A DNA stretch of 56,328 nt from a virus (lineage: Duplodnaviria > Caudoviricetes), in the IMG/VR virus record IMGVR_UViG_3300008448_000099, positions 1-56,328 of that record. One strand, given 5' to 3'. The notes under the pieces were generated by a model that saw only the letters and a program-made list of their open reading frames with translations, searched no databases and was not told the origin of the DNA. Position numbers and translations under genes: made by a program. Each line of letters begins with the position of its first letter. Positions within the stretch are counted from its first letter, which is position 1. Below, piece by piece: positions 2,750 to 21,926 of the stretch.

Positions 2750-4653
2750 TGGCTCAAAAAGATTGGCCTGGTGGCTACATACGACCCGTTCCCGTAGACC
2801 CCGCTGGCCCCTATCAAGACGGAGCAGCTCCCGGTGTATGGACACTAGACCAAGTAGCGTATTGGCTGAAGCAGGGGCTGTGGCCGATTGCAGGAAATGC
2901 TACGCCGATTGGGTTGTTTGGTGGCGGATCAACAGGAACAGCAACAAATACAATAGATAAGATAGTTATTACTTCAGTTGGAAACGCCACAGATTATGGA
3001 GATTTGAATGGAGCTAGAGACAGATTAGCAAGTTGCTCCTCGTCCACTCGTGCGGTTTGGGGGGCAGGAATTAGTGGTGCCGGAACTAGACAAAACAATA
3101 TGTCTTATTCTGCATTTGCAACGCTTGGAAACACTTCACTTTTTGGAAATTTAAGTCAATCAAAATACAGTTTAACTGCCGCATCGAATGCAATTAGGGG
3201 GGTGTTTGCTGGTGGTTTTACAACAGTTGTTTTAAACGTTATTGACTATATCACCATCCCATCCACAGGCAATGCAATTGATTTTGGGGATTTATTAGCT
3301 GCTAATTATGTTTTGGCGGGTGCGTCATCATCAACTAGGGCATTGTTTGCCGGCGGATACACCACGGTATTCACTAACGTTATTCAATACATTACGATTG
3401 CCTCGACCGGAAACGCAATTGATTTTGGTGATTTAGCGGTAAGTCCAAATAGTGCTACTGGCCAAGGTGTGGCGTCAGAAACCAGAGCCGTTTTTGCAAG
3501 TAGTGCTGCTGGTGGCGATAACACAATGCAGTATGTCACCATAGCTACCACAGGAAATTCAACTGATTTTGGTGACTTAATTGAGCCTGTAGAGGCTATG
3601 GCTGCCTGTGCGTCATCCACTCGTGGCGTATTCGCAGGGGGATATTCAGCAAACACTTCTGCTGTCACCAATGTAATTCAGTACATCACCATTGCATCTT
3701 TAGGTAACGCTACGGATTTTGGTGATTTGACGGTAGCTCGATCTGGACTTGCTGGATGTTCATCTGGGGCTGACGCAGTTCAATCCACGCCAACGAGTTC
3801 TGGAATGATGTTGCTATTTGGTGGAAACACAAGTGCAGGAGGCGCTCAGGCATCAATCCAATATATTAACATTGCGACAACTGGTAATTCCCCAATGTTT
3901 GGCCAGTGCTTGTTTGCAAGGGATCGGTCTGGAGGATTGGCATCAAGCACTCGCGGAGTGGTTGCAGGAGGAAACTCTCCCAACACCAATGTTATTGAGT
4001 ACATAGAGTTTTCAACCTTTGGTTTGACCACAGACTTTGGCGACCTAACGACCATTACAAGCCAGAATGCAGGTTGTGGCTCATCTACCCGCGGTGTTTT
4101 TGCTGGCGGTCTTGCGGTAAGCAATGTAATCCAATATGTCACAATTGCAAGCGCCGGAAACGCTACGGACTTTGGTGATCTTACGGTTGCACGAACCGAG
4201 CTTGCATCGTGTTCATCACCTACAGTTGGGGTTTGGGGGGGTGGATTTACCACAGTTAGGGTCAACACAATTGACTATGTGACAATTGCTTCGACCGGCA
4301 ATGCAACCGATTTTGGCGATCTTACGGCAAACACAAATGAACTTGCGGCCTGTTCATCTGCAACAAGAGGTCTGTTTGCTGGCGGATCAACAGGAACAGC
4401 ACAAAACGTAATTAGTTACATAACCATTGCTTCTGCTAGCGACTCCACAGATTTTGGAGACTTAACGTTAGCAAGAAGGCAGGTAACCGGTTCCTCCTCA
4501 TCAACAAGGGGGGTCTTTGCCGCAGGTCTTGGTCGCTCTAATGTCATTGACTATGTGACCATCGCATCGACCGGAGACGCTGTTGACTTTGGTGATATGG
4601 CAACGGAAACCACAGGCGTTGCAAGCTGTTCAAACGCTAATGGTGGTCTATAA
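2749..4653 (+). CDS. Virion protein with two tandem kelch-like beta-propeller repeat blocks
   Basis: About 12 copies of the same 'TIASTGNATDFGDL' repeat. Coupled to the previous gene by TAATG. Confidence 0.75.
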   Translation: MAQKDWPGGYIRPVPVDPAGPYQDGAAPGVWTLDQVAYWLKQGLWPIAGNATPIGLFGGGSTGTATNTIDKIVITSVGNATDYGDLNGARDRLASCSSSTRAVWGAGISGAGTRQNNMSYSAFATLGNTSLFGNLSQSKYSLTAASNAIRGVFAGGFTTVVLNVIDYITIPSTGNAIDFGDLLAANYVLAGASSSTRALFAGGYTTVFTNVIQYITIASTGNAIDFGDLAVSPNSATGQGVASETRAVFASSAAGGDNTMQYVTIATTGNSTDFGDLIEPVEAMAACASSTRGVFAGGYSANTSAVTNVIQYITIASLGNATDFGDLTVARSGLAGCSSGADAVQSTPTSSGMMLLFGGNTSAGGAQASIQYINIATTGNSPMFGQCLFARDRSGGLASSTRGVVAGGNSPNTNVIEYIEFSTFGLTTDFGDLTTITSQNAGCGSSTRGVFAGGLAVSNVIQYVTIASAGNATDFGDLTVARTELASCSSPTVGVWGGGFTTVRVNTIDYVTIASTGNATDFGDLTANTNELAACSSATRGLFAGGSTGTAQNVISYITIASASDSTDFGDLTLARRQVTGSSSSTRGVFAAGLGRSNVIDYVTIASTGDAVDFGDMATETTGVASCSNANGGL

Positions 4654-8339: not shown

Positions 8340-8507
8340 ATGGCAGAAGTATGGGAAAAAGACCGGCCAAAAAGCCTAGGAAAGCCCAAGTCGCTAAGCC
8401 CAAACCAAAAACGGGCAGCAAAAGCGTTTGCAAAAAAGACAGGGACTAAGTACCCATCCTTGGTGGCTAATATGGCTGGAGCCAAGGCTAAGAAAGGGAA
8501 GTGGTAA
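8340..8507 (+). CDS. 55-aa Lys-rich small protein (not in ORF track)
   Basis: GGAGG RBS. Translates as MAEVWEKDRPKSLGKPKSLSPNQKRAAKAFAKKTGTKYPSLVANMAGAKAKKGKW, with TAATG coupling to the next gene. Confidence 0.75.
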   Translation: MAEVWEKDRPKSLGKPKSLSPNQKRAAKAFAKKTGTKYPSLVANMAGAKAKKGKW

Positions 8508-9145
8508 TGCCAACCGCCGCCGTCATGACTTATAACTCTTTGGTGGACGATATTTCGTCTTACCTAGAGCGAACCGACCAAGCCACCCTAGACAAGATCC
8601 CAACCTTCATCATGTTGGCTGAGCAGGTTATTGCCTCAGAAATCAAGTTTTTGGGCAATCTGACGGTTCAGCAGAGCACGATGGTGGCGACCCAACCGGT
8701 CATCGACAAGCCCGCCCGGTGGCATAAGACGGTCTCCATGAATGTGGTCGTGGCCGGTGAGCGTCAGCCTGTCCTGCTTCGCAAGTATGAGTACCTTCGG
8801 GAGTATTGGCCTGATGCTACTCAAACGGATGTCCCCAAATTTTATTGTGACTATGACTATACCCATTGGTTGGTAGCTCCGACCCCGGCGTCTGCCTATA
8901 CCTTTGAGGTGCTCTACTATGAGCGGATTCAGCCCCTAGATTCCTCAAATCAGACCAATTGGTTCACGATTTACGCACCCCAGGCGCTCCTGTACGGGAC
9001 TCTGTTGCAGGCCATGCCTTTCCTTAAAAACGATGACCGCACCCCGATGTGGCAGGCTCAGTACGACAAGATCATCAATACCTTGAAGGCTGAAGACGTT
9101 ACCCGGATCGCAGATCGTCAAGCTACTGTATTGGATTCACAATGA
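8507..9145 (+). CDS. Putative head-tail adaptor / tail tubular protein
   Basis: Helical N- and C-termini flanking a beta region ('WLVAPTP..YTFEVLYY', 'ALLYGTL'). Lies in the tail block. Confidence 0.55.
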   Translation: MPTAAVMTYNSLVDDISSYLERTDQATLDKIPTFIMLAEQVIASEIKFLGNLTVQQSTMVATQPVIDKPARWHKTVSMNVVVAGERQPVLLRKYEYLREYWPDATQTDVPKFYCDYDYTHWLVAPTPASAYTFEVLYYERIQPLDSSNQTNWFTIYAPQALLYGTLLQAMPFLKNDDRTPMWQAQYDKIINTLKAEDVTRIADRQATVLDSQ

Positions 9146-10383
9146 GCTACAACTCACCTTTTACCGGTAATGTAATCCAACCGACCGATGTTTCTTACAG
9201 GGCGATCGCCCTGTCGGCCAATACTCAGCTTGAGTGGCCAATTAACGGAAACGCCACGGACGACTATGCCGCTCGGATCATGGAGGTCGTAGCGCTCGCA
9301 GGAGGTCTTCTCCTTGAGATGCCGCCTGCTAATCAGGCTTCTGTAGGTCAAGATGCTCTGATCCGAAATGTTGGTGCGACTACCTTCACGGTAACCGACT
9401 ATGATGGCAATACAATTGTTTCTGTAGCCGCAGGTGAGGCTAAGTACATTTATATTGAGACCAACCCTGATGAGGCGGGTACTTGGGGTGTCATCGCTTT
9501 TGGTGTAGGAACCTCAAATGTGGACGCCGCAACTCTTGCCGGGTACGGACTCTTGGCGGTTGGCAACACCTTAAATCAATCTCACCCGGTCAATACAATT
9601 TCGGCTAACACAACTGTCGGTGTAGCCAATCGAGCACAGACGGTCGTTTGGACGGGGGGTGCCGGAACCCTAACCCTGACTTCAGGAACCACTCTTGGCG
9701 ACAATTGGTTTGTTTTGGTGCGAAACAACGGCACCGGAACCCTTTCTATTACACCGTCAGGCGGTCAACTAATTGACTCTGCTGCGGCCATAGACCTTCA
9801 GCCAGATGACTCATGCTTCGTAATTTGCTCAGGTTCGGCATTTTTTACCGTTGGTATTGGTCGATCTACTGAATTTAACTTCACTCAGTTAACCAAGGCG
9901 GTGACTTCAGGAACGGTCACTTTGACCCCTGCTGAGGCTTCCAACGTCATCCAAAAGTACACCGGAACCCTGTCAGGCAATGTGACGGTAGAGCTTCCGC
10001 AGACCATTCAGGTTTACTACATTACCAACCAAACGGATGGTACGGGCTCAAACTTTGACATCACCTTTACCACCGGCATCTCAGGGTCTGGGGTTGCTAC
10101 GGTTCCTTCTAATCAACAGGCAATCCTGCTCTGTGACTCTGTAAACCTGTTTAATGCCGCTACTGTTGCGGCTGGTATTGTGAACCCTCAACTATCTGAT
10201 GGTTCGGTTGGCGCACCAAGCCTTTCTTTTGCAAGCGAACAAAACACGGGTGTTTACAGGCCAGGTGCAGGCCAGTTTGCGGTCACCGTATTAGGGGCTC
10301 AACGCCTAAATGTCACGGCAAGCGGAATATCCGTTACAGGCACGGGAACCTTTAGCGGTGGCGTTCTTGGCGGGACGTTCTAA
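9142..10383 (+). CDS. Tail structural protein
   Basis: G/T/S-rich beta-type sequence with 'DGSVGAPSLSF..E.NTG.YR' and a C-terminal GGTF. Confidence 0.6.
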   Translation: MSYNSPFTGNVIQPTDVSYRAIALSANTQLEWPINGNATDDYAARIMEVVALAGGLLLEMPPANQASVGQDALIRNVGATTFTVTDYDGNTIVSVAAGEAKYIYIETNPDEAGTWGVIAFGVGTSNVDAATLAGYGLLAVGNTLNQSHPVNTISANTTVGVANRAQTVVWTGGAGTLTLTSGTTLGDNWFVLVRNNGTGTLSITPSGGQLIDSAAAIDLQPDDSCFVICSGSAFFTVGIGRSTEFNFTQLTKAVTSGTVTLTPAEASNVIQKYTGTLSGNVTVELPQTIQVYYITNQTDGTGSNFDITFTTGISGSGVATVPSNQQAILLCDSVNLFNAATVAAGIVNPQLSDGSVGAPSLSFASEQNTGVYRPGAGQFAVTVLGAQRLNVTASGISVTGTGTFSGGVLGGTF

Positions 10384-12617
10384 TGACGCAAAAGGTCTTT
10401 GCCCTTGATACCCTAGCGGGGATTCAACGCGACGGCACTGTCTTCGATAAGCAGTATTACAACGATGGCCGTTGGGTCAGGTTTCAGCGTGGTCGCCCGC
10501 GTAAGGTAGGTGGGTACCGGGTCATTTCAAACGACCTAAGCGGGCCTTCAAGAGGGATTTGGCTAAATCCTCAAAACGCTTTTAATTACATCTTTTCAGG
10601 CTACTCAGACGGCCTACAAGAGCTCATCATTGATGACAATGGTGTTGGTGCCGGATACACAACTCTCACCCTGTCCAACTTTACTGCCTCCCCATTAAAT
10701 CTTTGGCAGTTTGATGGCTTTTATGATGTTGCGGGTGCGGGGGTAAATTCCTTACTAGCCCATCCCGGCCAAAACCTTGCCGCAATTGATAACACGACCA
10801 ACACCCCGGTTTTGATTGGAGACATTAACGGCACGACCATGTCCCAAATTGGGGTGTTTACGGACTCCGTAACGACTACAAACGGACTTCCGACAGTCAC
10901 TTTAGCGGCAAGCAATATCCTTATCGGAGCGGGTCAGACAATCACCGGAACGGGAATACCTGCAAACACTACCGTAGTCTCTGTCTCAAGCACTACGGTT
11001 ACGATGTCCAATAATGCCACGGCATCAGCAACCGTTACGGCAACCTTTAACAATAATGTTGAGGTGTCCGGAGGCGTGGTTTCCCTGCATCCGTATGTGT
11101 TCGTCTACGGAAACAATGGCCTGATTAGAAACTGTTCAGCAGGAAATGCTCAGGATTGGGTGTCGGCCGATGCCAATGAAACCAATGTGGCCACCGGAAA
11201 GATCGTTCAGGGTCTGCCGGTTCGCGGCGGTTCTAACTCTCCTTCAGGGCTCTTTTGGTCGCTCGACTCCCTCATCCGGGTATCTTATGCTCCTCAGTCC
11301 TTAGGTGTTGCCGGAACAGGAAACTTTGCCCCGCCGACCTTCTGGCGGTACGACATCATTTCCTCCCAGACCTCAATACTTTCATCGCAGTCCGTCATTG
11401 AGTATGATGGCGTCTATTATTGGTGCGGTGTCGATAGATTCCTTCTGTATAACGGGGTGGTGAAAGAAATCCCCAATCAGATGAATCAGAACTACTTTTT
11501 TGACAATCTGAACTACAACCAGCGTCAAAAGGTATGGGCAACCAAGGTTCCTCGATTCGGTGAGATTTGGTGGTTCTACCCCCGCGGAAGCTCAACTGAG
11601 TGTAATGACGCCATCATCTATAACATCCGTGAGAACACCTGGTATGACGCCGGCATCGCTTTAGGAGCTCGCCGATCCGCAGGCTACTTCTCTCAGGTGT
11701 TTGCTTACCCAATTGCTGCCGATTGGGAAACGCTTCCCCAAGAGGTGCTTTTAGAGCAGTCGATGACCTATACAAGCGGGTTCAATAAGATCCTATTGAA
11801 TACCTACTACGGCGAGATTGTCCTTAATTGCGTGGTTACCGGAACCGACATCCCTGCTAACACGACCGTGGACGCCATCCAATCTAGCGGTATAAAGGGG
11901 CTAGATACGATCACAGGCGGCTCTCTGTACGGCGATGGCACTTACCCCGATGTTCCCCTCACCGGAGGCTTAGGAGCGGGTGCTACGGCCGATATAACGG
12001 TCTCAGGTGGTGCGGTTACGGATGTCTTGATCGTTGATCCGGGTGCGGCCTATCAGGTCGGGGATGTTCTATCTGCAAGCAATACCAACCTAGGGGGTAC
12101 CGGGTCAGGCTTTTCGGTGCCGGTAGATGACCTATATGTCATGGTTTTGACCCTGTCTAACGCTCCCACGGCTTCTGATACTGCTGAATTGACCTTTAGC
12201 ACCCCTGCTGACCGGATTGAGATCTATCAGCACGAGGTTGGGGTAGATGCCATCAATGGCCAAAATGTCACGGCAATTGAGTCCTACTTTGAAACCTCAG
12301 ATCTTGGGTGGGTAGCCGGTGGTCCTGCTCAGCCGACGATGGAGGGCGCAAACCGTTGGTTAAGACTTGAGCGGGTGGAGCCTGACTTTATTCAGCACGG
12401 GCAGATGAGCCTGATCGTTACAGGTCGCCCCTATGCTCAGATCGATGACAAGGCATCTGATCCTTACTATTTTGACCCCAACACGGGAAAGATTGATATG
12501 AAGGAACAACGCCGGGAGTTGAGGCTGAAATTCATCTCCAACACGGTCGGTGGCGACTATCAGCTTGGTCGTGTGATCCTTAACGCAGATATTGGTGATG
12601 TCAGAGGATATTCATGA
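10383..12617 (+). CDS. Putative tail nozzle/stabilisation protein (tubular protein B/P22 gp10-like) with inserted domains
   Basis: Size, beta-rich composition, 'EIWWFYP...C..AIIYN..E.TW' motif, and position before the ejection genes. Confidence 0.6.
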   Translation: MTQKVFALDTLAGIQRDGTVFDKQYYNDGRWVRFQRGRPRKVGGYRVISNDLSGPSRGIWLNPQNAFNYIFSGYSDGLQELIIDDNGVGAGYTTLTLSNFTASPLNLWQFDGFYDVAGAGVNSLLAHPGQNLAAIDNTTNTPVLIGDINGTTMSQIGVFTDSVTTTNGLPTVTLAASNILIGAGQTITGTGIPANTTVVSVSSTTVTMSNNATASATVTATFNNNVEVSGGVVSLHPYVFVYGNNGLIRNCSAGNAQDWVSADANETNVATGKIVQGLPVRGGSNSPSGLFWSLDSLIRVSYAPQSLGVAGTGNFAPPTFWRYDIISSQTSILSSQSVIEYDGVYYWCGVDRFLLYNGVVKEIPNQMNQNYFFDNLNYNQRQKVWATKVPRFGEIWWFYPRGSSTECNDAIIYNIRENTWYDAGIALGARRSAGYFSQVFAYPIAADWETLPQEVLLEQSMTYTSGFNKILLNTYYGEIVLNCVVTGTDIPANTTVDAIQSSGIKGLDTITGGSLYGDGTYPDVPLTGGLGAGATADITVSGGAVTDVLIVDPGAAYQVGDVLSASNTNLGGTGSGFSVPVDDLYVMVLTLSNAPTASDTAELTFSTPADRIEIYQHEVGVDAINGQNVTAIESYFETSDLGWVAGGPAQPTMEGANRWLRLERVEPDFIQHGQMSLIVTGRPYAQIDDKASDPYYFDPNTGKIDMKEQRRELRLKFISNTVGGDYQLGRVILNADIGDVRGYS

Positions 12618-12886
12618 CGACTCCACTTACCCCTGCTAGCGGTCAACCGTTTATTTATGACCCAAGATTCCATACTTTTGAGTCTTGGGCAGCGCTTATG
12701 TGCGAGCAGTATGCAGGGCAACAGATTGAAATTCCGGGGCCACTTACGGATTGGAAGTTGTGGGGCAACGGATTGAAAGCTATTGATGTCTTTACGAATG
12801 AGGCTATCCCGGCAACCGATGAATTCAATAATTGGTTTGATTGGGCTCAGGAACTGTTATCAATGATCAACCCGCGGGTAGCGTAA
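12614..12886 (+). CDS. Hypothetical virion-region protein
   Basis: ATGA overlap with the previous gene. Trp-rich. Confidence 0.6.
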   Translation: MTTPLTPASGQPFIYDPRFHTFESWAALMCEQYAGQQIEIPGPLTDWKLWGNGLKAIDVFTNEAIPATDEFNNWFDWAQELLSMINPRVA

Positions 12887-12888
12887 TC

Positions 12889-15800
12889 ATGGCGTTTGAA
12901 GACGATATTTATCAAAACTCTTTCTTAGGCTTCAGACCTAACAGAATGAGAGAGTTTCGTGATTACGAAGATGCCGGTATTGATGTTTTTGCGCCGACTA
13001 GCCAAGACATGAATGCCGCCAATATTGCTAATACGGCAAACACAACGCCTGCTTCTAACATTGATCAGTTTCAAGAAGGTATTGATTCTCAAATATCTGC
13101 ATTAAATCAAGTCTCTGACTCTTCGTTAACAACTGAGCAAACTACCAAGCAAACCACCGGCGCATTACCCGGAGGCAAAACGGATACTGTAACGGTAGCA
13201 GATACCGCAATTACCGGAGCATTGCCGGGAGGTAGCGCAGATACCGTAACGGCAACCGCCCAAGATGTGGTTACAGGGGCTACAACCGGAGCAGAAACCA
13301 AGGCTGCTGATACATCAGGAGCATTAACCACAGCAACGACCGATATGTCACAACAGGGTGCGTTGCCAGGAGGAACCCAAACTGCTACCACAACGACTGC
13401 AAAGACGACCGATCCAAAAGACCTTGTTTATGACTATCAGGGCAAGTCTTACGACAAAAACCAACTTCTAAGCCTAGCAGCTCAAATTGGGCCAAACATT
13501 ACAAGCCTTGCTGGTGGTGTGTTTTCAACATCCGGGCAAAGCGTTGGCTTTGACTTTGATGAAGCTACCAAGATTCTTGGTGCAGAACCTACGGTCGGGC
13601 AGCAGGTCGTTTTGGATATGGCTCGTAACCTGCTCAATATGGGCGTTACTGACCTAAGTCAGCTCAATATCAAAGAGCAAAAAGAAGATCTAGAGGTCTT
13701 TGAGATTCTTGACGATCAAGGAAGGCCAACGGGAACTTACGGGACTTCGGTGCAAGACCCGAATAATCCTGAAGGAACCATGACTCGAATTCTGACGCCA
13801 GAAGAAGCGGCAAGAATTCGCACGGAAAGCACTCAAGGATCGGAAGGCGATAATGTCCGAAAGATTGCAGAAGACATCCTTACAGGTCGAACTCTTTATT
13901 CTGGCGATCAACTGATCAATGCTTCCAATCAGGTAACCGAAGGGCTATCTTTTGATATCGGTGTGACCTATACCGGCCCTGATTCGACTCGGTATCGGTT
14001 GATCATGAACCCGACAACGGGTAAGCCTGAGTTTGCGGCCTATTACTCAAGCACAAGCGATATGGACAAGGTCGGGGCGATTTTGACCATGGCATCGTTT
14101 GTCCCGCAACTTGCTGTTTTTGCTAAAGCAATCCAAGCGGGTATCGCCATTAAGAACGGTGATGTCTTAAATGGGTTGGCTAATCTTGCGGGAGTGGGCG
14201 GGTTTAACAATGTAGCGACGGCTCTTCAGGTAGCAAACGCTGCTAAAAACGGTGACGCCGTTCAATTAGTAAGCGCTCTTGTATCCAACGCAGATGTTGC
14301 CAAAGCAGCCGGCGATATAAAAATTGCCGGAGACATTAGTCTTAAAGATGTTGGAAACGGCATAAAGCTAGCCGATGCCATCAACAACCAAAATTGGAGT
14401 GGTGCGCTAACGATTGCCGGGACGATGTCAAATAGTCCTGACCTAGTTACGGCAGGCGCAGCGACCAAAGTAATTACGGCAATTCAGTCAGGCAACCCTA
14501 TTTTGATTGCTGATGCGGCTATGAACCTTAATAAGGTTACAAATGCGGCAAACAATATTACCGATCAGAATGTTGCAACCAAGATTGCTGATAGCGTCAA
14601 AAACACTCAGGTTGCGTCTCTAAACACTTCTGTCACCGGAACGGCTACGGACGCGGTTGGTGATATGTTGGACACCACCGTAGGCGGTGGTGGCAACGAT
14701 CTGACCGTCAAGGCTGACGATGTAAGCGCAGAAGACACATTTACCGGTCTTGATCAGTTAGCGGTAGATACCTTTGTGGACGCCAAGAACAAGGGCGCAA
14801 CCGACGAAGAGGCGCTGAATGCCGCCAATAGTGTCCTGACAGCCTCAAAGACTACGGTAGATGAGTTTGGTGGCTTTGGCGACGCAACTAAAGCTACAAC
14901 TGAGCGAAATGTCTTAAATATTAGCAATACTGAAGCGAACACACCGGAAGAAGCCGCTAATCTTGCCGCATCTAAAGGTTATTCTAGTTTTACCTTCGGA
15001 GGCACAACCTACGCTTTAAGCGCATCCGCTCAAGATGTAGATCGACAAGTTGCTAATCAAGAGATTGCCTCTCAGTCTAGTTTTAATGATGCTTATAAAG
15101 TTGCCCGTGAAAGGCTTGGCCCAGGGCAGACCTTTGAATGGAATGGTAAGTCATACTCAACAGACACCCGTGAGGAAAATCCTGTTCTTGCTGCGGCTTC
15201 TGATGCGGCAATTGCGGCTAAGACGGCAACCAAGACATATACAAATTACGACACCAAATCAATGGCTGATGCTCAGTCTCAAATTGATTTGTCGGGATTG
15301 GATCAGGCTCAAACTTACGGCACCTTTGATCCATTCTTGAAGTCAGCCGGTCTTGGTGGCGAATATATCATTGTTGATGACAAGATTAGTAAGCAGATTA
15401 TTGACCCCGTGGTCAAGACGGTTGGTTTGGCCACTCGAGGCGTTGGCGGAATTGTTGACTTTACCGCAGGTACGCTCCAGGCGATTAATGTAATCGACAA
15501 AAACTCACCGTTAATTCAAATTGCTTCGGATCTAAAAGAACTTGGAAATCAGCAAGTTGGCGAATACCTTGTAAACCAAGAAAAAGAGTTTGTTAGCAGG
15601 ATTAGTGAGGCTGAAGGATTAACTGGAAAGTTAAAAGCGTTAGCAGACGGAATTATTAAAAACCCATCTGCTTTGTTAACCCTTGGTGCAAGCGAGTTAG
15701 TGGAAGAAGCTCCAAGTGTTGTTGGAGCGGTTGTTTCAATAATTGCAAGAGCCCCAAAAATCATAGCCTACGGCGTTAACGCGGTTACTAACCTTGTTGA

Positions 15801-17991
15801 GGCGGCAGGAGCAAACTACAACGACACCAAGAAACAGGCTCTTGATGCCGGAATGAGCGAGGCAGATGCACACGCTGCCGCTCAAAAGTCAGCGGGAGCC
15901 GCCGGAGCACTTGCGTTTGTTCTTGGGCCTGTAGCAGAGATGCCCTTAATTAAACGAGCCGGAGATCTTGTTGAGGGTGTCGCACAGACAGGCGTTAAAC
16001 AAAGCGCCAAAGAGGTCGGCAAAACAGTAGGCAAAGAAGTTGTAACTGAGAGCGCTGAAGGCGGCGGTGCTGCTGCCGTTGGAAGTTACTTTGCTACCGG
16101 TCAGGTTGACATGAATCAGGTGCTGACTTCAGCGGTGCTTGACCCTGCGGTTGCAGGAAATGTATCCGGAACGGTTGCCACGGTTGTGGAGGTTGCAGGC
16201 AATAAGCCCGCTACAGGCGAAATGATCTCTGCATCGGTTTCCAATCCTGAGCAAGCTCAGACCCTCATTAACACGGTCAACACGGCCATGCAGCCAGGGG
16301 CAGATCTGAAGCAGGCAAGCATAGAAATTGTTTCAACCTTGACGGCTTCTGGAATGAACACTCAGCAGGCTGAGAGCGTAGCAAACACGGCAGTTGCTGA
16401 GCAGATTATTACGAACATCAACAATTACGGTGATCTAAATATTCCGAATGTGAATATTACAGTCGGTGCTGATAAGTTTGGAAACGCGGTTACCTTAGGC
16501 GACTACTTGGGTAGCTCTGTAACCGGCTTAGGAAATATTGAGTATATTGCACCTGATGTCTCTATCGGAACCAATGCGCAGGGTCAGCCAATTACCGTAG
16601 GTGATCTGTCAAGTTTGGGTAAGTTTGGAGCGGCTACTGATACAACTCAAGCTGCTGACACAACGCAGGTTGCTGATACGACTACGGACACAAAGACCGG
16701 AGCCACTACATCGACGGACGCTACTACCGGGGCTACAACTCAGACAACTACTGACGCGGCCACAAACACGACTACTGAAACAACGACAAATAACAATACA
16801 GGTGTCAACACGCAGGTTGTTACAGACACAAAGAATGACACAAAGACAACCACAACGACTGATACCAATACAAATACAACCACTCAGACAACAACAAATG
16901 CTGAGACAAATGTAACTACTGAAACGACGGTCAATACTGACACAAATACCGTCACTCAGACTAATACAGACCCGAATACCAACACCCAGACAACAACTCA
17001 GATTGATAACAGCACAAATGTTGTCACAGAGACCAAGACTGATAACAACTCAAGTACTGAAACAAAGGTAGTTACTGACCCAAATAATAATATTCAGACA
17101 ACCACAGTTATTGACACGAGCACAGGCGAGGTTATTGACACCAAGACGACGGTTGTTCCACCGGATTGGAAAGAGCCGGATATTGATACGCCTGATCCGG
17201 TAGAACCTACAGAACCTGATACCAAGACCAAGACAACGCCGACCAAGAAAACGCCAACAAAAACCCAGCCGTCACCGGCGCTTGGTTTAAGTTTATTGGC
17301 TGCACCTACAATTTTCCCTGACGATGGGCCAAAGTTTAAAGACCCGTTCATTACAAGCGCGGCTGAACAACGCAAGTTTGTCGGCTCTCTTGATCCATTC
17401 TTCCAAGAGGTGGAATCAGGAGATATGCTTCACCCTGACTTTATGGCTCAAGCGCCGTCCATGCAATTACAAGACCAAGAAGATACGAAGGAAGAAACGA
17501 TGCCCAATTACTTTACCTATGGGATGCAGACAGACCTTGATAGTCTGTTTGGCCCATTCGGTGCCACCGGAACCGGCTTGTCTCAGTTTGAAGATGAGAT
17601 GGCTGCTAAGCGCGGCGGTTTAGCCGCTCCTCTAATGGCAGGTGGCGGTCTTACCCGATACGGTCGGTATGCCGGCGGAGGCGTACCCTTGGTAGCGCAT
17701 TCAGGCAAGACAAGGGTAGACTTCCGTCAGGGTGACGCGGTGACGGGGCCGGGAGATGGTCAATCTGACAGCATCCCTGCAATGCTCGCAGACGGGGAGT
17801 TTGTGATCCCTGCCGATGTCGTGGCCGCCCTTGGGAACGGTTCTACAAAGGCTGGATCAGACAAACTATACGACATGATGCACTCCATACGGGCTTATCA
17901 CCGATCGGCTAAACCGAAAGACCTGCCTCCTGAGGCAAAGGCAAACCCGTTGGACTATCTGAAAAAACCCTCCCGAAAGGCTAGGAGATAA
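12889..17991 (+). CDS. Very large putative internal virion/ejection protein
   Basis: About 1700 aa with Ala/Gly-rich helices, a Thr-rich tract and a C-terminal 'GPGDGQSDSIPAMLADGEFV' domain. ATG 12889 follows the previous stop. Confidence 0.65.
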   Translation: MAFEDDIYQNSFLGFRPNRMREFRDYEDAGIDVFAPTSQDMNAANIANTANTTPASNIDQFQEGIDSQISALNQVSDSSLTTEQTTKQTTGALPGGKTDTVTVADTAITGALPGGSADTVTATAQDVVTGATTGAETKAADTSGALTTATTDMSQQGALPGGTQTATTTTAKTTDPKDLVYDYQGKSYDKNQLLSLAAQIGPNITSLAGGVFSTSGQSVGFDFDEATKILGAEPTVGQQVVLDMARNLLNMGVTDLSQLNIKEQKEDLEVFEILDDQGRPTGTYGTSVQDPNNPEGTMTRILTPEEAARIRTESTQGSEGDNVRKIAEDILTGRTLYSGDQLINASNQVTEGLSFDIGVTYTGPDSTRYRLIMNPTTGKPEFAAYYSSTSDMDKVGAILTMASFVPQLAVFAKAIQAGIAIKNGDVLNGLANLAGVGGFNNVATALQVANAAKNGDAVQLVSALVSNADVAKAAGDIKIAGDISLKDVGNGIKLADAINNQNWSGALTIAGTMSNSPDLVTAGAATKVITAIQSGNPILIADAAMNLNKVTNAANNITDQNVATKIADSVKNTQVASLNTSVTGTATDAVGDMLDTTVGGGGNDLTVKADDVSAEDTFTGLDQLAVDTFVDAKNKGATDEEALNAANSVLTASKTTVDEFGGFGDATKATTERNVLNISNTEANTPEEAANLAASKGYSSFTFGGTTYALSASAQDVDRQVANQEIASQSSFNDAYKVARERLGPGQTFEWNGKSYSTDTREENPVLAAASDAAIAAKTATKTYTNYDTKSMADAQSQIDLSGLDQAQTYGTFDPFLKSAGLGGEYIIVDDKISKQIIDPVVKTVGLATRGVGGIVDFTAGTLQAINVIDKNSPLIQIASDLKELGNQQVGEYLVNQEKEFVSRISEAEGLTGKLKALADGIIKNPSALLTLGASELVEEAPSVVGAVVSIIARAPKIIAYGVNAVTNLVEAAGANYNDTKKQALDAGMSEADAHAAAQKSAGAAGALAFVLGPVAEMPLIKRAGDLVEGVAQTGVKQSAKEVGKTVGKEVVTESAEGGGAAAVGSYFATGQVDMNQVLTSAVLDPAVAGNVSGTVATVVEVAGNKPATGEMISASVSNPEQAQTLINTVNTAMQPGADLKQASIEIVSTLTASGMNTQQAESVANTAVAEQIITNINNYGDLNIPNVNITVGADKFGNAVTLGDYLGSSVTGLGNIEYIAPDVSIGTNAQGQPITVGDLSSLGKFGAATDTTQAADTTQVADTTTDTKTGATTSTDATTGATTQTTTDAATNTTTETTTNNNTGVNTQVVTDTKNDTKTTTTTDTNTNTTTQTTTNAETNVTTETTVNTDTNTVTQTNTDPNTNTQTTTQIDNSTNVVTETKTDNNSSTETKVVTDPNNNIQTTTVIDTSTGEVIDTKTTVVPPDWKEPDIDTPDPVEPTEPDTKTKTTPTKKTPTKTQPSPALGLSLLAAPTIFPDDGPKFKDPFITSAAEQRKFVGSLDPFFQEVESGDMLHPDFMAQAPSMQLQDQEDTKEETMPNYFTYGMQTDLDSLFGPFGATGTGLSQFEDEMAAKRGGLAAPLMAGGGLTRYGRYAGGGVPLVAHSGKTRVDFRQGDAVTGPGDGQSDSIPAMLADGEFVIPADVVAALGNGSTKAGSDKLYDMMHSIRAYHRSAKPKDLPPEAKANPLDYLKKPSRKARR

Positions 17992-17993
17992 GC

Positions 17994-19016
17994 ATGGCAA
18001 TTACCCAAGGTGCTCCGTTACCCGATATCACGCAGACGACAACTAGAACCGATACTGCGCCTGATTACTACACTAGTTACCTCCAAAGCCTATCGGACGC
18101 CGCCAAAACAGGCATGGGGCGTACCGCAGAACAAGGAATTGCAGGGTATGACCCACTCCAAACCCTTGGTTATGGCCAAGTAGAAGGTGCTGCCGGGGCA
18201 TATAAACCCGGTCTTTCGGCAGCTACGGCAACAGCAGGAAAGGCTGCGGCCGGCCTTGATCCATCCCGTATTGCCGCTCTCATGGACCCGTATCAAAAGC
18301 AGGTCGTTGATGAGATGGCTCGGCTCCAAGAGCAAAATATCCAACGATCGGTTCTGCCGTCCCTAAAGGGTGCCTTTGTTGGTCGCGGTGACCTAGGAAG
18401 CTCACGGTACGCCGGGGCTACAGGGCAGACCTTAGCCGATATGCAGCGCAACCTGATGGGTCAGCAATACGGTGCCTTATCTCAGGGCTACGGAAACGCT
18501 CTGAAGGCGGCCATGGATGAATTAAACCTTCAGAACCAGGCGGCTCAGGTGCAGGGAAAACTAGCTGAAATGGAGCAGTCTTTAGGGCTGACCGGGGCAG
18601 GAGCCCTATCCAAAGCCGGTGCTGAGAAGCAGGCTTATGAGCAGGCTAAGTTGGACTTTCCAATGAAGACCGCTACCGATGCCGCCGCCTTGATGCGCGG
18701 CTTCCAAGTTCCGACAACCCAAACCGAAAAGTTTGTGGGGCCAAAGGCAGGGATGTATCAGACCTCCCCGCTTTCTAACATCCTTGGCGTTCTTTCTACG
18801 ATTGGCGGAATCAAGGGCGGATCAGCCGGAGACAAGCTAATTGGTAGCGTACTTTCTGGATTTAAAGACCTTTTCTCAGGTGGAGAAGGTGGAGGATTTA
18901 ACTGGGAAGAATGGGCAAAGACTGCATCCGGCACCCCTGGGGAAGGCTACAACTTTGAAGAAGAAGATTATGGCGGTCTTGCTAGAGGTGGTCTCGCTCA
19001 CATTCGCCGCCGTTAG
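17994..19016 (+). CDS. Putative DNA ejection (pilot) protein
   Basis: Q/A/G-rich helical sequence with 'MDPYQKQVVD' and 'GAF...GSSR', as in podovirus ejection proteins. Confidence 0.6.
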   Translation: MAITQGAPLPDITQTTTRTDTAPDYYTSYLQSLSDAAKTGMGRTAEQGIAGYDPLQTLGYGQVEGAAGAYKPGLSAATATAGKAAAGLDPSRIAALMDPYQKQVVDEMARLQEQNIQRSVLPSLKGAFVGRGDLGSSRYAGATGQTLADMQRNLMGQQYGALSQGYGNALKAAMDELNLQNQAAQVQGKLAEMEQSLGLTGAGALSKAGAEKQAYEQAKLDFPMKTATDAAALMRGFQVPTTQTEKFVGPKAGMYQTSPLSNILGVLSTIGGIKGGSAGDKLIGSVLSGFKDLFSGGEGGGFNWEEWAKTASGTPGEGYNFEEEDYGGLARGGLAHIRRR

Positions 19017-19025
19017 GAATTAGAC

Positions 19026-20576
19026 ATGGCAAAAGAAACTTCCTTTGGCTTTCTACCGGGTAGCGACCCGGATGCGATGAAGGCAAATCTTGACTATCAA
19101 GAGGCGCTTGCACGGATGCAGGAAGCCCTTGATGCCCGCAAAAACCGAATGTTCGACCCTGAGATGCTTGCCTTGGCATCAGGCTTTTTGGCTCCTACGC
19201 AGACCGGAGGCTTTGGTGAGTCTCTTGGATATGCCGCTAAAAATATGCGGGAAGCCCAGATGCAGCAAGAAAAGGAAGAGCGTGAGATTGCTCAGGCTCA
19301 ACTAGGACTTGCCGGTAAGGGTCTTGAACTTGAGCGGATGCGTCAGCGTGACCGTCAATTTGAGAGCATGATGGGGCCACAGGGCGCTCCTAAAGGTGCT
19401 CTGCCTACCGGCGCTCCTGAGGCAAAGGGTGCTCTACCGGCTCCTCCAAAGGGATTTGAAGGCACAGAAGGTATTCCGGTCGCTCCTCCCAATCCGTCCT
19501 TTATGACCGGCCGTCAGTACCTTGGCATGGCTCGCATGGACCCATCGATCTCCCCAACCGCGGCAATGAAAGAGGCCCAGAAGATGGAGATGGATCGGTA
19601 TCAGGTGCGTGAGGGCGGCGTTCAGGACTTGGCTTCAGGTATGTACTATCCGTTCCCGAAGGGCGAAACGGTCAAACGTCAGATCTTTGGTTATTCGGGT
19701 GAGTTCAATGTGGACGCCCGGACTGCTGCGCTTCTCGATATGTACGCCGCAAACGGTGACCCGCGCTATTACGACCTGGCTAAGAGGGTTGTGGAAGGTC
19801 CTAAGGCTCCTCCAAAACCGGGTGAAAAGGTTGCAGGAGCTGAGGGCGAGCGGATGAAGTCTGCGACTGAGGTTGAGGCTGAAAGAGCAGCGGCAACAGA
19901 ATCCGCTAAAGAGCGGGCTAAGGCTCAGGAAGATGAGCGTAAGAGAACCATTGAAGCAGGCTCTGATGCCGCCTCCCGTATTGGTACCTATCGTCAGCTT
20001 GAGCGGATCGCTAGCGGCCCGAATGCTAAGGCGATTTTCGGTATCTTTGAGCGCCCAGGCGTGTTTGAGCAGATTGGAAAACTTGTGGAAAGCGGTATCG
20101 GTAACCCTAAGTTTACGGTCGGTGTCCCCGCTATCCGCGAGATTATGACCAACGCAGGGCTACCGCAGAACCTGATCGATCAGTCTCAGTTGGCTCTCTC
20201 CCTGATGGCTAACGTCCAACTACAGATGAGCCGGCTTCAGCAGGGTCAGGGTGCGGTATCTGACTATGAGCGCCAATTGTTTGGTCAGGCCGCAATCACC
20301 AAGACAGACAACCCGCAGACGATTCTTGCCAAACTTGACCTGCTACGGGCTCGCGCTGAGTTCGATCGTGAAGTTTCTAAGGCTGCCCGTGGATATAAGG
20401 GCAATATCGATGACTTCAAGCTCAGCCCTGAGTATGAGCGCATGGTTTCAAGTTATGAAGACAAACTTGGGGCGATTATTGATGCCCGCCTAAGCGGATC
20501 AATCACGCCTCCGGCGCGTAGCCGTCCTTCAGGCGGTCGTGACAATCAAGGCGCAGCCTCCCGTTTACCGGTCTAG
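19026..20576 (+). CDS. Putative DNA ejection protein
   Basis: 'LALASGFLAPTQTGGFGESLG' and 'GQGAVSDYER' with coiled-coil stretches. Lies in the ejection block. Confidence 0.6.
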   Translation: MAKETSFGFLPGSDPDAMKANLDYQEALARMQEALDARKNRMFDPEMLALASGFLAPTQTGGFGESLGYAAKNMREAQMQQEKEEREIAQAQLGLAGKGLELERMRQRDRQFESMMGPQGAPKGALPTGAPEAKGALPAPPKGFEGTEGIPVAPPNPSFMTGRQYLGMARMDPSISPTAAMKEAQKMEMDRYQVREGGVQDLASGMYYPFPKGETVKRQIFGYSGEFNVDARTAALLDMYAANGDPRYYDLAKRVVEGPKAPPKPGEKVAGAEGERMKSATEVEAERAAATESAKERAKAQEDERKRTIEAGSDAASRIGTYRQLERIASGPNAKAIFGIFERPGVFEQIGKLVESGIGNPKFTVGVPAIREIMTNAGLPQNLIDQSQLALSLMANVQLQMSRLQQGQGAVSDYERQLFGQAAITKTDNPQTILAKLDLLRARAEFDREVSKAARGYKGNIDDFKLSPEYERMVSSYEDKLGAIIDARLSGSITPPARSRPSGGRDNQGAASRLPV

Positions 20577-20585
20577 GGGTGAGGA

Positions 20586-21926
20586 ATGGAACTATCTTTC
20601 TATAAAAACCTAAACCCAACGCAAAAGGCTTTTGCTGACCGTATTGCGGCCAAAGCAAAAGAGATGGGGATACCCCCTGAGCTTGCCGTATCGGTTGCCT
20701 TCCAAGAAAGCGGCCTGAATCCTCAGGTCGGTAAGGGTGCCGCCGGTGAGATCGGCATCATGCAGATCAAGCCTGCAACGGCCAAAGAGATGGGCTTTAG
20801 CCTTGATGATCTAGCCGACCCAATGAAGAACATTGAGGCCGGTCTTTCCTACCTAAAGAAGTCCTATGAACTAAGCGAAGGCAACCCGAAGTTAGCCGCC
20901 GCAGGGTACAACGCAGGCGTCAATCACCCGTTCTTCAGCTCTAAAGATCAGACCCTGCCTGACACCACGGTCAACTACCTGAAGAGCCTAAACACCTTCG
21001 GTGCGTTTACTGGAGCCCCCGAGAAGAAGACGGTTGAGTTTCAAGAGCCTCCTCCAAGCCAGGAAGCGATCAACCTTCAACAAGAGATTGATAAGGTTGA
21101 TGAAGGCGTTGCCCGTGGGCGTGGTCAGTTAATCGGGGGCGCTTTGGGTGCCGCTGAGACTGCTCGTCGAGCCGCGGTTCCAGCCGCTAGAGGTGCCGCT
21201 AAGTTCCTTGGAAGCGCTATGGAAGAGGGAAGGCTTGCCGCTGAAGCAAAAGCCGCAGCACAGAAACCCCCTATAGGCGGCACGATGGCTCCCGGATTGG
21301 CTTCTGAGTCAACATCCATGAACCGCATCCTACAAGGCACCACGGACGATGCAGGCACTACAGGACGGGCTCGGATGCAGGGATTCAATGTAGAGACCGC
21401 TCAGCAGGCGGCAAGGGCTAAAGAAGCCGCCCGTAATATCGGGGCTCTTCAGCGTCAAGGATTGGTTGCTCAGGGTGTTCCTGACCCATTTGCAAAGGGT
21501 CCAGGCATGACATCTTCTCCGTCAGGGGTTATCTACCCACGGACACCGCCTGTGACTAAGATGCCTCCTGCGGTTCCTAAAAGCGGTCTAGATGAGGTCA
21601 CAGAACTCTTCCGTAAGATGATTGAGCCGGGATCGAAACTCCGCACGGCGGGCGGTGTAGCGATGCGCTATGGGGCTCCTCCGCTTGCTCTGATGCAGGC
21701 AGGTAGCGAGACAGGGGCGATGATCAGCGAAGGCCGTAAAGAGCAGCCTGACTATCTAAAAGCGGGTCTGTCGGGTCTTGGAGCGATCGGCGCAGGAATG
21801 TCGATGTTCCCGGCTACCGCTCCCGTAGGTATCCCGCTTGCAGTTACGGCACCACTTATTCAGTACCTTAGAGAAACAAAATCGGAGCGGCCTGAGGGTC
21901 AGATCTCAGATATTGCCGCTCCATAA
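20586..21926 (+). CDS. Virion-associated lytic transglycosylase (SLT/GH23) ejection protein
   Basis: SLT motifs 'QESG', 'GIMQI.PATA', 'NI.AG..YL' and 'AAAGYNAG' at the N-terminus, with a hydrophobic C-terminal segment. Confidence 0.88.
   Translation: MELSFYKNLNPTQKAFADRIAAKAKEMGIPPELAVSVAFQESGLNPQVGKGAAGEIGIMQIKPATAKEMGFSLDDLADPMKNIEAGLSYLKKSYELSEGNPKLAAAGYNAGVNHPFFSSKDQTLPDTTVNYLKSLNTFGAFTGAPEKKTVEFQEPPPSQEAINLQQEIDKVDEGVARGRGQLIGGALGAAETARRAAVPAARGAAKFLGSAMEEGRLAAEAKAAAQKPPIGGTMAPGLASESTSMNRILQGTTDDAGTTGRARMQGFNVETAQQAARAKEAARNIGALQRQGLVAQGVPDPFAKGPGMTSSPSGVIYPRTPPVTKMPPAVPKSGLDEVTELFRKMIEPGSKLRTAGGVAMRYGAPPLALMQAGSETGAMISEGRKEQPDYLKAGLSGLGAIGAGMSMFPATAPVGIPLAVTAPLIQYLRETKSERPEGQISDIAAP

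What the first reader, a model, noticed from the sequence alone, without database searches (positions are those of the whole stretch)
17599..17991. Tape-measure-type 'GG...GPG..SDSIPA.L..GEFV' domain in a phage without a tape measure: candidate reader or protease of the xxxGG signal
Seen: three motifs (AKRGG, MAGGG, YAGGG) directly precede 'GPGDGQSDSIPAMLADGEFVIPADVVAALGNGS'. Recalled, needs verification: many tape-measure proteins, including lambda gpH which is C-terminally processed, carry '[FY]AxGG...GEFV' near the C-terminus. No prohead protease is recognisable in this genome. Inference: this single domain may bind or cleave xxxGG sites in cis and in trans on the other GG-bearing proteins.
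Basis: partly seen in the sequence, partly recalled or inferred. Interest (0 to 1): 0.7.

Follow-up and report, generated by a model that had tools for sequence, protein, structure and literature searches.

The report
Tape-measure-type end module in a podophage
The region is the conserved tail end of a giant, length-variable virion protein of a short-tailed phage; it shares a short motif with the tape measure proteins of long-tailed phages and looks like a docking piece rather than a protease.

Summary
Observation confirmed. Window 17599-17991 encodes the last 130 residues of a 1716-aa ORF (12841-17991, +) and holds AKRGG, MAGGG, YAGGG and GPGDGQSDSIPAMLADGEFVIPADVVAALGNGS. The phage has a short-tailed layout (adaptor, nozzle, no tail tube or tape measure).

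The ~45-residue core is homologous to a motif in real tape measure proteins (TMPs): 9 TMP PHROG families, and the Douge (4.7e-17) and JBD30 (2.4e-8) TMPs. Lambda gpH carries the second half. No Pfam or NCBIfam model covers it. It is very common: 12,468 cluster representatives at E<=1e-3.

In this lineage it is always C-terminal, on bodies of 964 to about 3000 aa.

The protease/reader interpretation is not supported:
- No peptidase match.
- Two AlphaFold2 runs leave the core unfolded (pLDDT ~54-55).
- The serine is not family-wide.
- Caulobacter phage GB2A keeps the module but has no GG-rich proteins.

Best reading: a non-enzymatic docking module of a tape-measure-like ejection protein, possibly next to a maturation cleavage site as in lambda gpH. 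The GG-word enrichment in two other window proteins is real but unexplained.

The parts
12841..17991 (+). 1716-aa hypervariable virion protein (public gene call 1700 aa) that carries the module at its C-terminus. It is Ala/Thr-rich, with a Thr/Asn low-complexity block at about residues 1300-1470.
   Evidence: ORF. No Pfam, PHROG, NCBIfam or PDB sequence hit for the whole protein. Relatives whose C-terminal 157 aa are 63-100% identical range from 964 to 2985 aa. Composition and a single marginal hydrophobic segment (413-431).
17599..17685 (+). Glycine-rich hinge with three GG-words (AKRGG, MAGGG, YAGGG).
   Evidence: The hinge is conserved in relatives as [KA]GGLA.PL[MF]A.GG.TR[YH]G.YAGGG. A GG-word lies just upstream of the GxGDG loop in diverse relatives.
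17707..17838 (+). Core motif VDFRQGDAVTGPGDGQSDSIPAMLADGEFVIPADVVAALGNGS, the part shared with tape measure proteins.
   Evidence: 9 TMP PHROG families among 14 hits, best E 8e-7. Douge TMP 4.7e-17 and JBD30 TMP 2.4e-8 with profile A2. Invariant in 74 sequences: G50 G52 G54 S56 D57 L63 G66 E67 V69 V75 G79 G81 G86, numbered within the 130-aa stretch.
17839..17907 (+). Predicted alpha-helix TKAGSDKLYDMMHSIRAYHRS, the only confidently modelled element.
   Evidence: AF2 helix 83-103 of the 130 aa, pLDDT about 74-80, and helix 104-123 of the 150 aa. It aligns with lambda gpH VGNLYRLMR.
17908..17991 (+). Pro-rich, basic C-terminal tail (AKPKDLPPEAKANPLDYLKKPSRKARR) and stop codon.
   Evidence: Conserved as KDLPPPAKKSPLDYLKK..R in the close clade.
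8501..9145 (+). Tail adaptor (context).
   Evidence: Pfam SU10_adaptor 1.3e-26.
10383..12617 (+). Nozzle-like protein directly upstream of the 1716-aa gene (context, candidate docking partner).
   Evidence: phmmer vs PDB: nozzle gp16 of 8zkk, E 1.8e-8. phrog_3287 6.4e-23.
17994..21926 (+). Three downstream genes (340, 516 and 446 aa) forming an ejection-protein-type cassette. The last has an N-terminal SLT lytic transglycosylase domain.
   Evidence: SLT 1.2e-20 and 'internal virion protein with endolysin domain' phrog_342 3.2e-17. The 340-aa protein hits phrog_4287 'DNA ejection protein' weakly, E 0.0048. The same order is seen in GB2A and MW202545.

Best explanation
The region is the conserved C-terminal module (about 105-130 residues) of a tape-measure-like ejection or plug protein of a short-tailed phage. 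The module consists of a glycine-rich hinge with [FY]AxGG-type words, a GxGDGxSDxIPA loop, a LADGEFVIPA strand, one helix and a basic tail. The module is not an enzyme. It is a docking element that takes up structure only when bound. It holds the C-terminal end of the long, length-variable protein at a conserved site in the tail channel (nozzle, adaptor or portal lumen), in the way the C-terminal part of a tape measure protein is held in the tail tip of long-tailed phages. The variable body is free to change in length because no tail tube has to be measured. Shown: homology of the core to TMP motifs, strict C-terminal position, strong conservation on a hypervariable body, gene position after the nozzle and before an SLT-bearing cassette, and no predicted autonomous fold. 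Inferred: presence in the virion, the docking function and partner, and any cleavage at the glycine-rich hinge by analogy with lambda gpH.
For: Homology to TMP motifs:
- 9 of the 14 PHROG families hit by the 130 aa are annotated TMP, best E 8e-7.
- Profile A2 hits the Douge TMP at 4.7e-17 (two internal copies) and the JBD30 TMP at 2.4e-8. Profile A3 gives 4.5e-12 and 1.1e-4.
- Lambda gpH is linked through the Nitrincola TMP (BLASTP E 5e-7 over 38 aa).
- It is also linked through phrog_24, hit at the same profile positions by lambda 8e-56, Nitrincola 1.4e-11 and the HTVC103P tail 3.6e-5, and by hhalign at probability 47%, E 1.9e-4.

Position:
- The motif lies 68-104 aa from the end in 227 of 232 relatives.
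- The stop codon lies 33-62 aa after GEFV in all 73 loci where the core was found, out of 80 fetched.

Conserved end on a variable body:
- The 120 listed relatives have 63-100% identity over the last 157 aa, while total length runs 964-2985 aa.

Context:
- SU10-type adaptor, nozzle (8zkk, 1.8e-8), then this gene, then 340-aa, 516-aa and SLT proteins.
- The same cassette is present in GB2A and MW202545.

Not a folded enzyme:
- AF2 mean pLDDT 55.4 and 54.0, with the core below 50.
- No peptidase family match.

Precedents read in papers (passages only):
- The JBD30 authors predict a 'hook' at TMP residues 1022-1066, which contains this motif, and speculate that it retains the TMP in the baseplate (PMC11445458).
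- Lambda gpHC stays in the tail tip (PMC12617516).
Against: - No structure, proteomics or genetics exists for any member of this podophage lineage, so virion location and partner are inferred.
- In solved tails the motif region itself is not resolved. For Douge only 1658-1699 was built, for JBD30 only the last 33 residues, and lambda gpH ~690-817 is unresolved (PMC13033339, PMC11445458, PMC12617516, passages). A stable, symmetric docked state before ejection has therefore never been seen.
- In true TMPs the motif can be internal and duplicated: Douge 964-1007 and 1413-1451 of 1699, and Gordonia Hollow about 2236-2330 of 3027. That fits a terminal anchor less well.
- Ser56, Asp57 and Glu67 are invariant in the 74 podophage-type sequences. 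This could also mean metal binding or chemistry rather than docking.
- Some relatives carry precomputed Pfam domains in their bodies. Their accession meanings, as I recall them, are carbohydrate-binding or enzymatic, which would also fit an external fibre whose C-terminus plugs into the nozzle.
Confidence: 0.5

Rival explanations
1. Processing-site module. The glycine-rich hinge plus motif marks, or itself catalyses in cis, a maturation cleavage. This would release a ~105-125-residue C-terminal fragment that stays in the tail as a plug, like lambda gpH going to gpH* plus gpHC. This is compatible with the docking reading and could be an added property.
For: [quoted passage not shown]
- The lambda motif starts at residue 733, just downstream of that estimate.
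- T5 pb2 is cut after R1127 (PMC10038345, passages), and in the T5 sequence R1127 is followed by AEGG...GEHGTEVVTP, a look-alike word.
- The window's fragment from YAGGG to the end (~105 aa) is similar in size to pb2C (92 aa) and gpHC (~14 kDa).
Against: - The T5 segment is not demonstrably homologous: BLASTP E 78, no shared PHROG, hhalign probability 0.2%.
- The lambda site is unmapped, so coincidence with the motif is approximate.
- No residue set typical of known self-cleaving modules is conserved family-wide.
- No evidence of cleavage exists for any podophage member.
Confidence: 0.2
2. One reading: the domain is a trans-acting reader or protease that recognises xxxGG words on other virion proteins (the 295-aa, 1508-aa, 340-aa and 155-aa proteins).
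For: - GG-words are really enriched in the window: 20 observed vs 5.0 expected. The 295-aa protein has 9 vs 0.32 and the 1508-aa protein 5 vs 0.53, each with 0 of 2000 shuffles reaching the observed count.
- The enrichment recurs in MW202545: 17 vs 4.7, with 9 in the protein at the equivalent position.
- GG positions are kept in 64 orthologues of the 295-aa protein, with 12-20 GG each.
- The words have the same form as the word inside the module.
Against: - No peptidase signature.
- No predicted fold.
- Ser is not conserved across the family.
- GB2A (capsid 78% identical) keeps the module. Over its whole genome it shows 4 words vs 4.7 expected in the first 50 kb, 0 vs 0.9 in 12 head-module CDSs, and no counterpart of the 1508-aa protein.
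- HTVC103P has 3 vs 3.3 in 50 of its 54 kb.
- Siphophage TMPs carry the module without any such partner set being known.
Confidence: 0.06
3. Post-ejection envelope element. The module acts after ejection in the periplasm, for example by binding peptidoglycan, a membrane or Ca2+, or with muralytic activity as claimed for the T5 pb2 C-terminal region.
For: - The acidic, Gly-rich loop GDGQSDD...DGE...GNGS resembles metal-binding turns (my reading of the sequence, not tested).
- One relative is annotated 'calcium-binding protein' by its depositors.
- phrog_971, annotated endolysin, is hit weakly at E 0.0037.
- T5 pb2C is proposed to digest peptidoglycan (PMC10038345, passages).
Against: - T5 pb2C is not homologous by any test used.
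- The Ur-lambda authors state that lambda virions contain no peptidoglycan hydrolase and that no enzymatic activity is known for gpH (PMC12617516).
- There is no lysin or binding-domain family match.
- The phrog_971 hit probably reflects a TMP-lysin fusion profile.
Confidence: 0.1

Closest known systems
Conserved C-proximal motif of siphophage tape measure proteins (Douge gp16, JBD30 gp46, Nitrincola 1M3-16 TMP, Gordonia Hollow gp26; PHROGs 6090, 3547, 25241, 17300, 5448)
   Same: The ~45-residue core [FY]AxGG..GxGxGxSDSIPA..S.GEFV..A.AV is shared at significant E-values.
   Different: In TMPs the motif is internal or about 100-750 residues from the end, is sometimes duplicated, and is followed by a separate hub-binding C-terminal helix. 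Here it lies ~73 residues from the end of a protein in a phage with no tail tube, and protein length is unconstrained.
Lambda gpH C-terminal region (gpHC fragment; phrog_24)
   Same: It shares GEFV..G.GN.LY.LM and flanking [FY]A[TS]GG words. It is a C-terminal piece of a long ejected protein, next to a glycine-rich hinge.
   Different: Lambda lacks the SD.IPA loop. Support is moderate (hhalign 47%). Lambda gpH is cleaved and binds gpI through residues 818-849 (PMC12617516). Neither cleavage nor a gpI-like partner is known here.
Podophage ejection (internal virion) proteins: T7 gp14/15/16, P22 gp7/20/16
   Same: Gene position after adaptor and nozzle, next to an SLT-bearing protein. The neighbouring 340-aa protein weakly hits a 'DNA ejection protein' PHROG.
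   Different: The 1716-aa protein has no detectable sequence similarity to any of them. As far as I recall, none of those proteins carries a TMP-type motif; this was not tested here.
T5 pb2 C-terminal fragment pb2C
   Same: A GG-word (R|AEGG) sits at the mapped cleavage site, followed by a GE..E.V.P stretch. The fragment size is similar (PMC10038345).
   Different: Homology was tested and not found. This is a resemblance of pattern only.

Membership tests
Tape measure protein (TMP) of long-tailed phages | Carries the conserved TMP C-proximal motif | tested here: met
   PHROG TMP families at E 8e-7 to 2e-5. Douge and JBD30 TMPs at 4.7e-17 and 2.4e-8.
Tape measure protein (TMP) of long-tailed phages | Encoded in a long-tail module (tail tube, chaperone pair, distal tail and hub genes) | tested here: not met
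   The 40 ORFs scanned gave adaptor, nozzle and SLT hits but no tube, sheath, chaperone or hub family.
Tape measure protein (TMP) of long-tailed phages | Protein length tied to tail length, hence stable among close relatives | tested here: not met
   Relatives with 63-100% identical C-termini range from 964 to 2985 aa.
Tape measure protein (TMP) of long-tailed phages | Match to a curated TMP family over the body of the protein | tested here: not met
   No Pfam, NCBIfam or PHROG hit for the whole 1716 aa. Only the ~45-aa core matches.
Podophage ejection / internal virion proteins | Gene lies after adaptor and nozzle and next to a lysin-bearing internal protein | tested here: met
   Synteny in GB2A and MW202545.
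Podophage ejection / internal virion proteins | Sequence or profile similarity to a characterised ejection protein | tested here: not met
   No hit for the 1716-aa protein. Only the neighbouring 340-aa protein hits phrog_4287, at E 0.0048.
Podophage ejection / internal virion proteins | Packaged in the virion and ejected on infection | not testable with these tools
   Needs virion proteomics or cryo-EM of an isolate such as GB2A.
   Pfam and NCBIfam returned 0 families at E<=10. PHROG hits are TMP, unknown, or one 'endolysin'.
   Ser56 and Asp57 are invariant in 74 podophage-type sequences. But Ser is Ala in 023Pt_psg01 and absent in lambda gpH and in MW202545 copy 2. No conserved His or Lys in the core.
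   AF2 mean pLDDT 55.4 and 54.0 with the core below 50. Foldseek vs PDB gave 0 matches at E<=0.001. This is a prediction, not a structure.
Cleaved C-terminal TMP fragment (lambda gpHC type) | Homologous to the gpH 750-785 segment | tested here: met
   Indirect and moderate: Nitrincola bridge E 5e-7, shared phrog_24 positions, hhalign 47%. The narrow profile alone gave E 0.15.
Cleaved C-terminal TMP fragment (lambda gpHC type) | Proteolytic release from the body during assembly | not testable with these tools
   Needs mass spectrometry of virions.

The most novel reading that the evidence does not exclude
The 1716-aa protein and its thousands of relatives are true evolutionary kin of tape measure proteins that have lost the measuring role. 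On this view they are a 'free-length tape measure' whose body is stored in the capsid or portal channel of a short-tailed phage, with its C-terminal module still docked at the tail exit. The shared hinge-plus-motif module would be the element that specifies the maturation cut of TMPs, whose site and catalyst in lambda gpH have been unknown since 1974. This would link podophage ejection proteins and siphophage TMPs by descent and make the gpH cleavage question directly testable by mutating FATGG/GEFV.
Probability: 0.2. Interest if true: 0.7.

Novelty: new variant of a known kind. Interest (0 to 1): 0.42.

Why it matters
- The module is very common (12,468 cluster representatives) yet has no Pfam or NCBIfam model and no assigned function.
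- It probably explains part of the puzzling 'tape measure' annotations in short-tailed phages. A 2026 survey counted 1,459 of 22,880 podovirus-type IMG/VR phages with a TMP annotation and said nothing is known about TMPs in podoviruses (PMC13585406, passages). GB2A gp065 and the DSL-LC04 protein are annotated that way.
- It gives a concrete sequence link between the genome-delivery proteins of short- and long-tailed phages.
- It places a conserved element next to the unmapped lambda gpH cleavage site, which suggests simple experiments.
- For annotation: a hit to this motif alone should not be read as 'tape measure protein'.

Tried and rejected
- **Trimer prediction.** Three copies of the 150-aa tail with alignment A1 gave no verdict (score 0.01). 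This is not evidence either way.
- **Structure.** Two AF2 jobs gave low-confidence models. Foldseek vs PDB on the second gave nothing (best E 4.5). I did not run VIA-align because only one helix is confidently modelled.
- **ESM Atlas.** Only uncharacterised viral clusters at 0.95. The nearest named cluster was the crAss cargo protein domain at 0.82, below the level to be trusted.
- **T5 pb2 as a homologue.** Rejected after BLASTP (E 78), PHROG (no shared family) and hhalign (probability 0.2%). A search for pb2 relatives returned only proteins at least 95% identical among the 120 listed, which was useless for a profile.
- **Narrow clade profile vs lambda gpH.** E 0.15, not significant on its own.
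- **Genome-contig scan.** It returned only 3 loci because the patterns were clade-specific.
- **Literature.** The string search for SDSIPA, GTSDSIP, FATGG, FANGG, FASGG and GEFVI returned place and personal names; none of the 20 listed papers held the first two strings. The search for other mapped TMP cleavage sites was swamped by unrelated papers. So 'not described in print' rests only, and is weak.
- **'GGLAH[IV]R' C-terminal tag.** Present on the 340-aa and 1508-aa proteins but not conserved in MW202545, GB2A or the two MAG loci (0 hits).
- **Earlier findings of the scan.** None for this genome.
Full report
**1. What is at the coordinates**

Window 17599-17991 is the last 130 codons plus the stop codon of a 1716-aa ORF (12841-17991, + strand; the public gene call is 1700 aa). 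The strings AKRGG, MAGGG, YAGGG and GPGDGQSDSIPAMLADGEFVIPADVVAALGNGS are all present. Twenty residues separate YAGGG from GPGDG, so 'directly precede' is slightly loose.

**2. What kind of phage this is**

I scanned 40 of the 49 ORFs in my gene set (ORFs of at least 100 aa picked from the 75 listed) against PHROGs and Pfam.

- Structural and replication genes found: small and large terminase, portal, a Phage_capsid_4 capsid protein, an SU10-type adaptor (8501-9145), tail fibres, lysozyme, and replication genes.
- Not found: any tail tube, sheath, tail chaperone or tape measure family.
- The 744-aa protein just upstream of the 1716-aa gene matches a solved podophage nozzle (8zkk, E 1.8e-8).
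- Downstream lie 340-aa, 516-aa and 446-aa proteins. The last has an N-terminal SLT domain and hits 'internal virion protein with endolysin domain'. The 340-aa protein weakly hits a 'DNA ejection protein' PHROG (E 0.0048).

The gene therefore sits where short-tailed phages encode their needle or plug and their ejection proteins. No peptidase family was found, and the 'protease' PHROG hits of the capsid protein are to the capsid half of fused profiles. From established knowledge, P22- and T7-type phages lack a prohead protease, so its absence needs no special explanation.

**3. The motif really is of tape-measure type**

- Pfam and NCBIfam give nothing for the 130 or 200 C-terminal residues, even at E<=10.
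- PHROGs give 14 families, 9 of them annotated tape measure protein (best E 8e-7), all through a ~40-residue stretch.
- Among PDB chain sequences, the mycobacteriophage Douge TMP (two internal copies) and the Pseudomonas phage JBD30 TMP are hit.
- A broader profile (A2: 11 sequences, including TMPs and podophage proteins) gives 4.7e-17 and 2.4e-8 for these two.
- A 74-sequence podophage-only profile (A3) gives 4.5e-12 and 1.1e-4.

Lambda gpH contains HFATGGFTGTGGKYEPAGIVHRGEFVFTKEATSRIGVGNLYRLMRGYATGGYV at residues 733-785 of 853. The clade-specific profile alone does not reach significance for it (E 0.15). Three other results support the link:

- The Nitrincola phage TMP bridges the two forms (BLASTP against gpH, E 5e-7, 42% identity over 38 residues).
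- Lambda's own family phrog_24 is hit at the same profile positions by Nitrincola (1.4e-11) and by the pelagiphage HTVC103P tail (3.6e-5).
- hhalign of A3 against the gpH C-terminus gives probability 47%, E 1.9e-4.

**4. Distribution and architecture**

- phmmer against 1.84 billion cluster representatives gives 12,468 hits at E<=1e-3.
- Among proteins of 943-3003 aa, 868 match. The 120 listed are 63-100% identical over the last 157 residues, yet range from 964 to 2985 aa.
- In 227 of 232 fetched relatives the motif is 68-104 residues from the end.
- In a second, more diverse set of 80 IMG/VR loci the core was found in 73. In all 73 the stop codon follows GEFV by 33-62 residues.
- A large subfamily has an insertion between SDSIPA and LADGEFV. 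In every sequence read, a GG-word lies just upstream of the GxGDG loop, so that word is part of the module.
- In annotated phages the module ends proteins of 294 to 759 aa that precede two or three further unknown proteins and often a lytic protein: GB2A, MW202545, DSL-LC04, Pag-Yong1 and 023Pt_psg01. In HTVC103P it ends a protein between portal and capsid.
- Most of these phages share the window's capsid lineage: MW202545 90%, GB2A 78%, the others about 40%. They are therefore not independent samples.
- In real TMPs the motif is internal or subterminal.

**5. Is it a protease or a reader of GG signals?**

- Fold. Two AlphaFold2 runs (22 and 74 sequences) give mean pLDDT 55.4 and 54.0. The invariant core stays below 50, and only one helix (TKAGSDKLYDMMHSIRAYHRS) is confident. 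Foldseek finds nothing. A conserved ~45-residue stretch that does not fold alone looks like a motif that orders on binding, not an enzyme.
- Residues. Ser56, Asp57 and Glu67 are invariant in the 74 podophage sequences. But Ser is Ala in 023Pt_psg01, and it is missing in lambda gpH and in the second tandem copy in MW202545.
- The GG-words are real. For [FYWMLH][AKR]xGG, the window has 20 against 5.0 expected. They are concentrated in the 295-aa protein (9 vs 0.32) and the 1508-aa protein (5 vs 0.53), each with 0 of 2000 shuffles reaching the observed count. The 1716-aa protein itself is borderline (2 vs 0.34; 97 of 2000). Orthologues of the 295-aa protein keep 12-20 GG each (64 unique sequences).
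- The co-occurrence test is split. MW202545 (50 of 57 kb scanned) is enriched (17 vs 4.7). GB2A is not: 4 vs 4.7 in the first 50 kb, and 0 vs 0.9 in 12 head-module CDSs of the remainder. GB2A also has no large gene between terminase and portal. HTVC103P (50 of 54 kb) is not enriched (3 vs 3.3).

The module therefore persists in a close relative with no GG-rich partners. I did not test the reverse case, GG-rich proteins in phages that lack the module.

**6. Link to tape measure processing**

- Lambda. [quoted passage not shown] The precise site and the catalyst are stated to be unknown. gpHC stays in the tip through residues 818-849 bound to gpI, and residues ~690-817 are unresolved. The lambda motif (starting at 733) would lie near the N-terminus of gpHC.
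- T5. From passages of PMC10038345: pb2 is cut after R1127. In the T5 sequence, R1127 is followed by AEGGMMYPGVSYQMGEHGTEVVTP, a look-alike of the GG-word plus GE..V element. However, BLASTP, PHROG and hhalign all fail to support homology. I treat T5 as a resemblance only.
- JBD30. From passages of PMC11445458: the authors predict a 'hook' at residues 1022-1066, which contains this motif, and speculate that it holds the TMP in the baseplate after the C-terminal domain is expelled.

**7. Reading**

The best-supported explanation is a non-enzymatic docking module. It fixes the C-terminal end of a tape-measure-like ejection or plug protein at a conserved site in the tail channel. The body varies freely in length because nothing is measured. 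A maturation cut in the glycine-rich hinge, as in lambda, is possible but untested. The trans-acting reader/protease idea is unlikely. The GG-word-rich 295-aa and 1508-aa proteins remain unexplained and are recorded separately.

**8. Novelty**

The motif is implicit in TMP profile families but has no curated family or known function. A 2026 survey states that nothing is known about TMPs in podovirus-type phages, although 6.4% of them carry such an annotation (PMC13585406, passages). My searches for a description of the motif found none, but they were weak. I rate it a new variant of a known kind, of moderate interest.

Noticed in passing
window 46734-47621 (+): A 295-aa Lys-rich protein downstream of the capsid gene with 9 [FYWMLH][AKR]xGG words (0.32 expected; 0 of 2000 shuffles). 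It has no Pfam or PHROG hit and at least 589 relatives in IMG/VR, with 12-20 GG kept in 64 orthologues. A 449-aa positional equivalent in MW202545 also has 9 words. GB2A has no such GG-rich protein at the equivalent position. Function unknown.
   Followed up: partly
window 35084-39610 (+): A 1508-aa protein between large terminase and portal with 5 GG-words (0.53 expected). It has a hit to phrog_7348 over residues 767-962 and an N-terminal GHEGRHRMRAL stretch that I recall as ParB-like (not tested). MW202545 has an 890-aa protein at this position; GB2A has none.
   Followed up: partly
window 42501-42941 (+): A Cpn10/GroES-like gene inside the head module (Pfam Cpn10 6.8e-7; phrog_3188), also annotated in MW202545 at the same position.
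   Followed up: no
window 1508-2749 and 2749-4653 (+): Two adjacent proteins with periodic hFAGG/hFGGG repeats. These are one residue shorter than the GG-word above and look like repeated blades of a beta-propeller. The first has an fn3 domain at its N-terminus. They are probably ordinary tail-fibre-associated repeats, unrelated to the module.
   Followed up: no
window 33-986 and 54939-56327 (+): DUF7483 tail-fibre genes at both ends of the window, each running to the window edge. The window may be a circularly permuted whole genome (the public contig is also 56,328 bases), or the two may be paralogues.
   Followed up: no
window 18960-19016 and 39560-39610; L095, L094, L004, L005: The 340-aa and 1508-aa proteins both end in GGLAH[IV]R plus basic residues. 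The tag is not found at ORF ends in MW202545, GB2A or the two closest MAG loci.
   Followed up: yes
L003 11803-12201 (MW202545 640-aa protein): This relative carries two tandem copies of the core (residues 510-566 and 573-638). The second lacks the SD.IP loop.
   Followed up: partly
L002 8513-10255 (GB2A gp065), L090 (DSL-LC04): Proteins of short-tailed-type phages are deposited as 'tail length tape measure protein', apparently because of this motif alone.
   Followed up: partly
L004, L005, L006: The only hits in bacterial genome collections are contigs binned into freshwater Burkholderiaceae, Limnohabitans and Hyphomicrobiales MAGs. This hints at the host range of the lineage.
   Followed up: no
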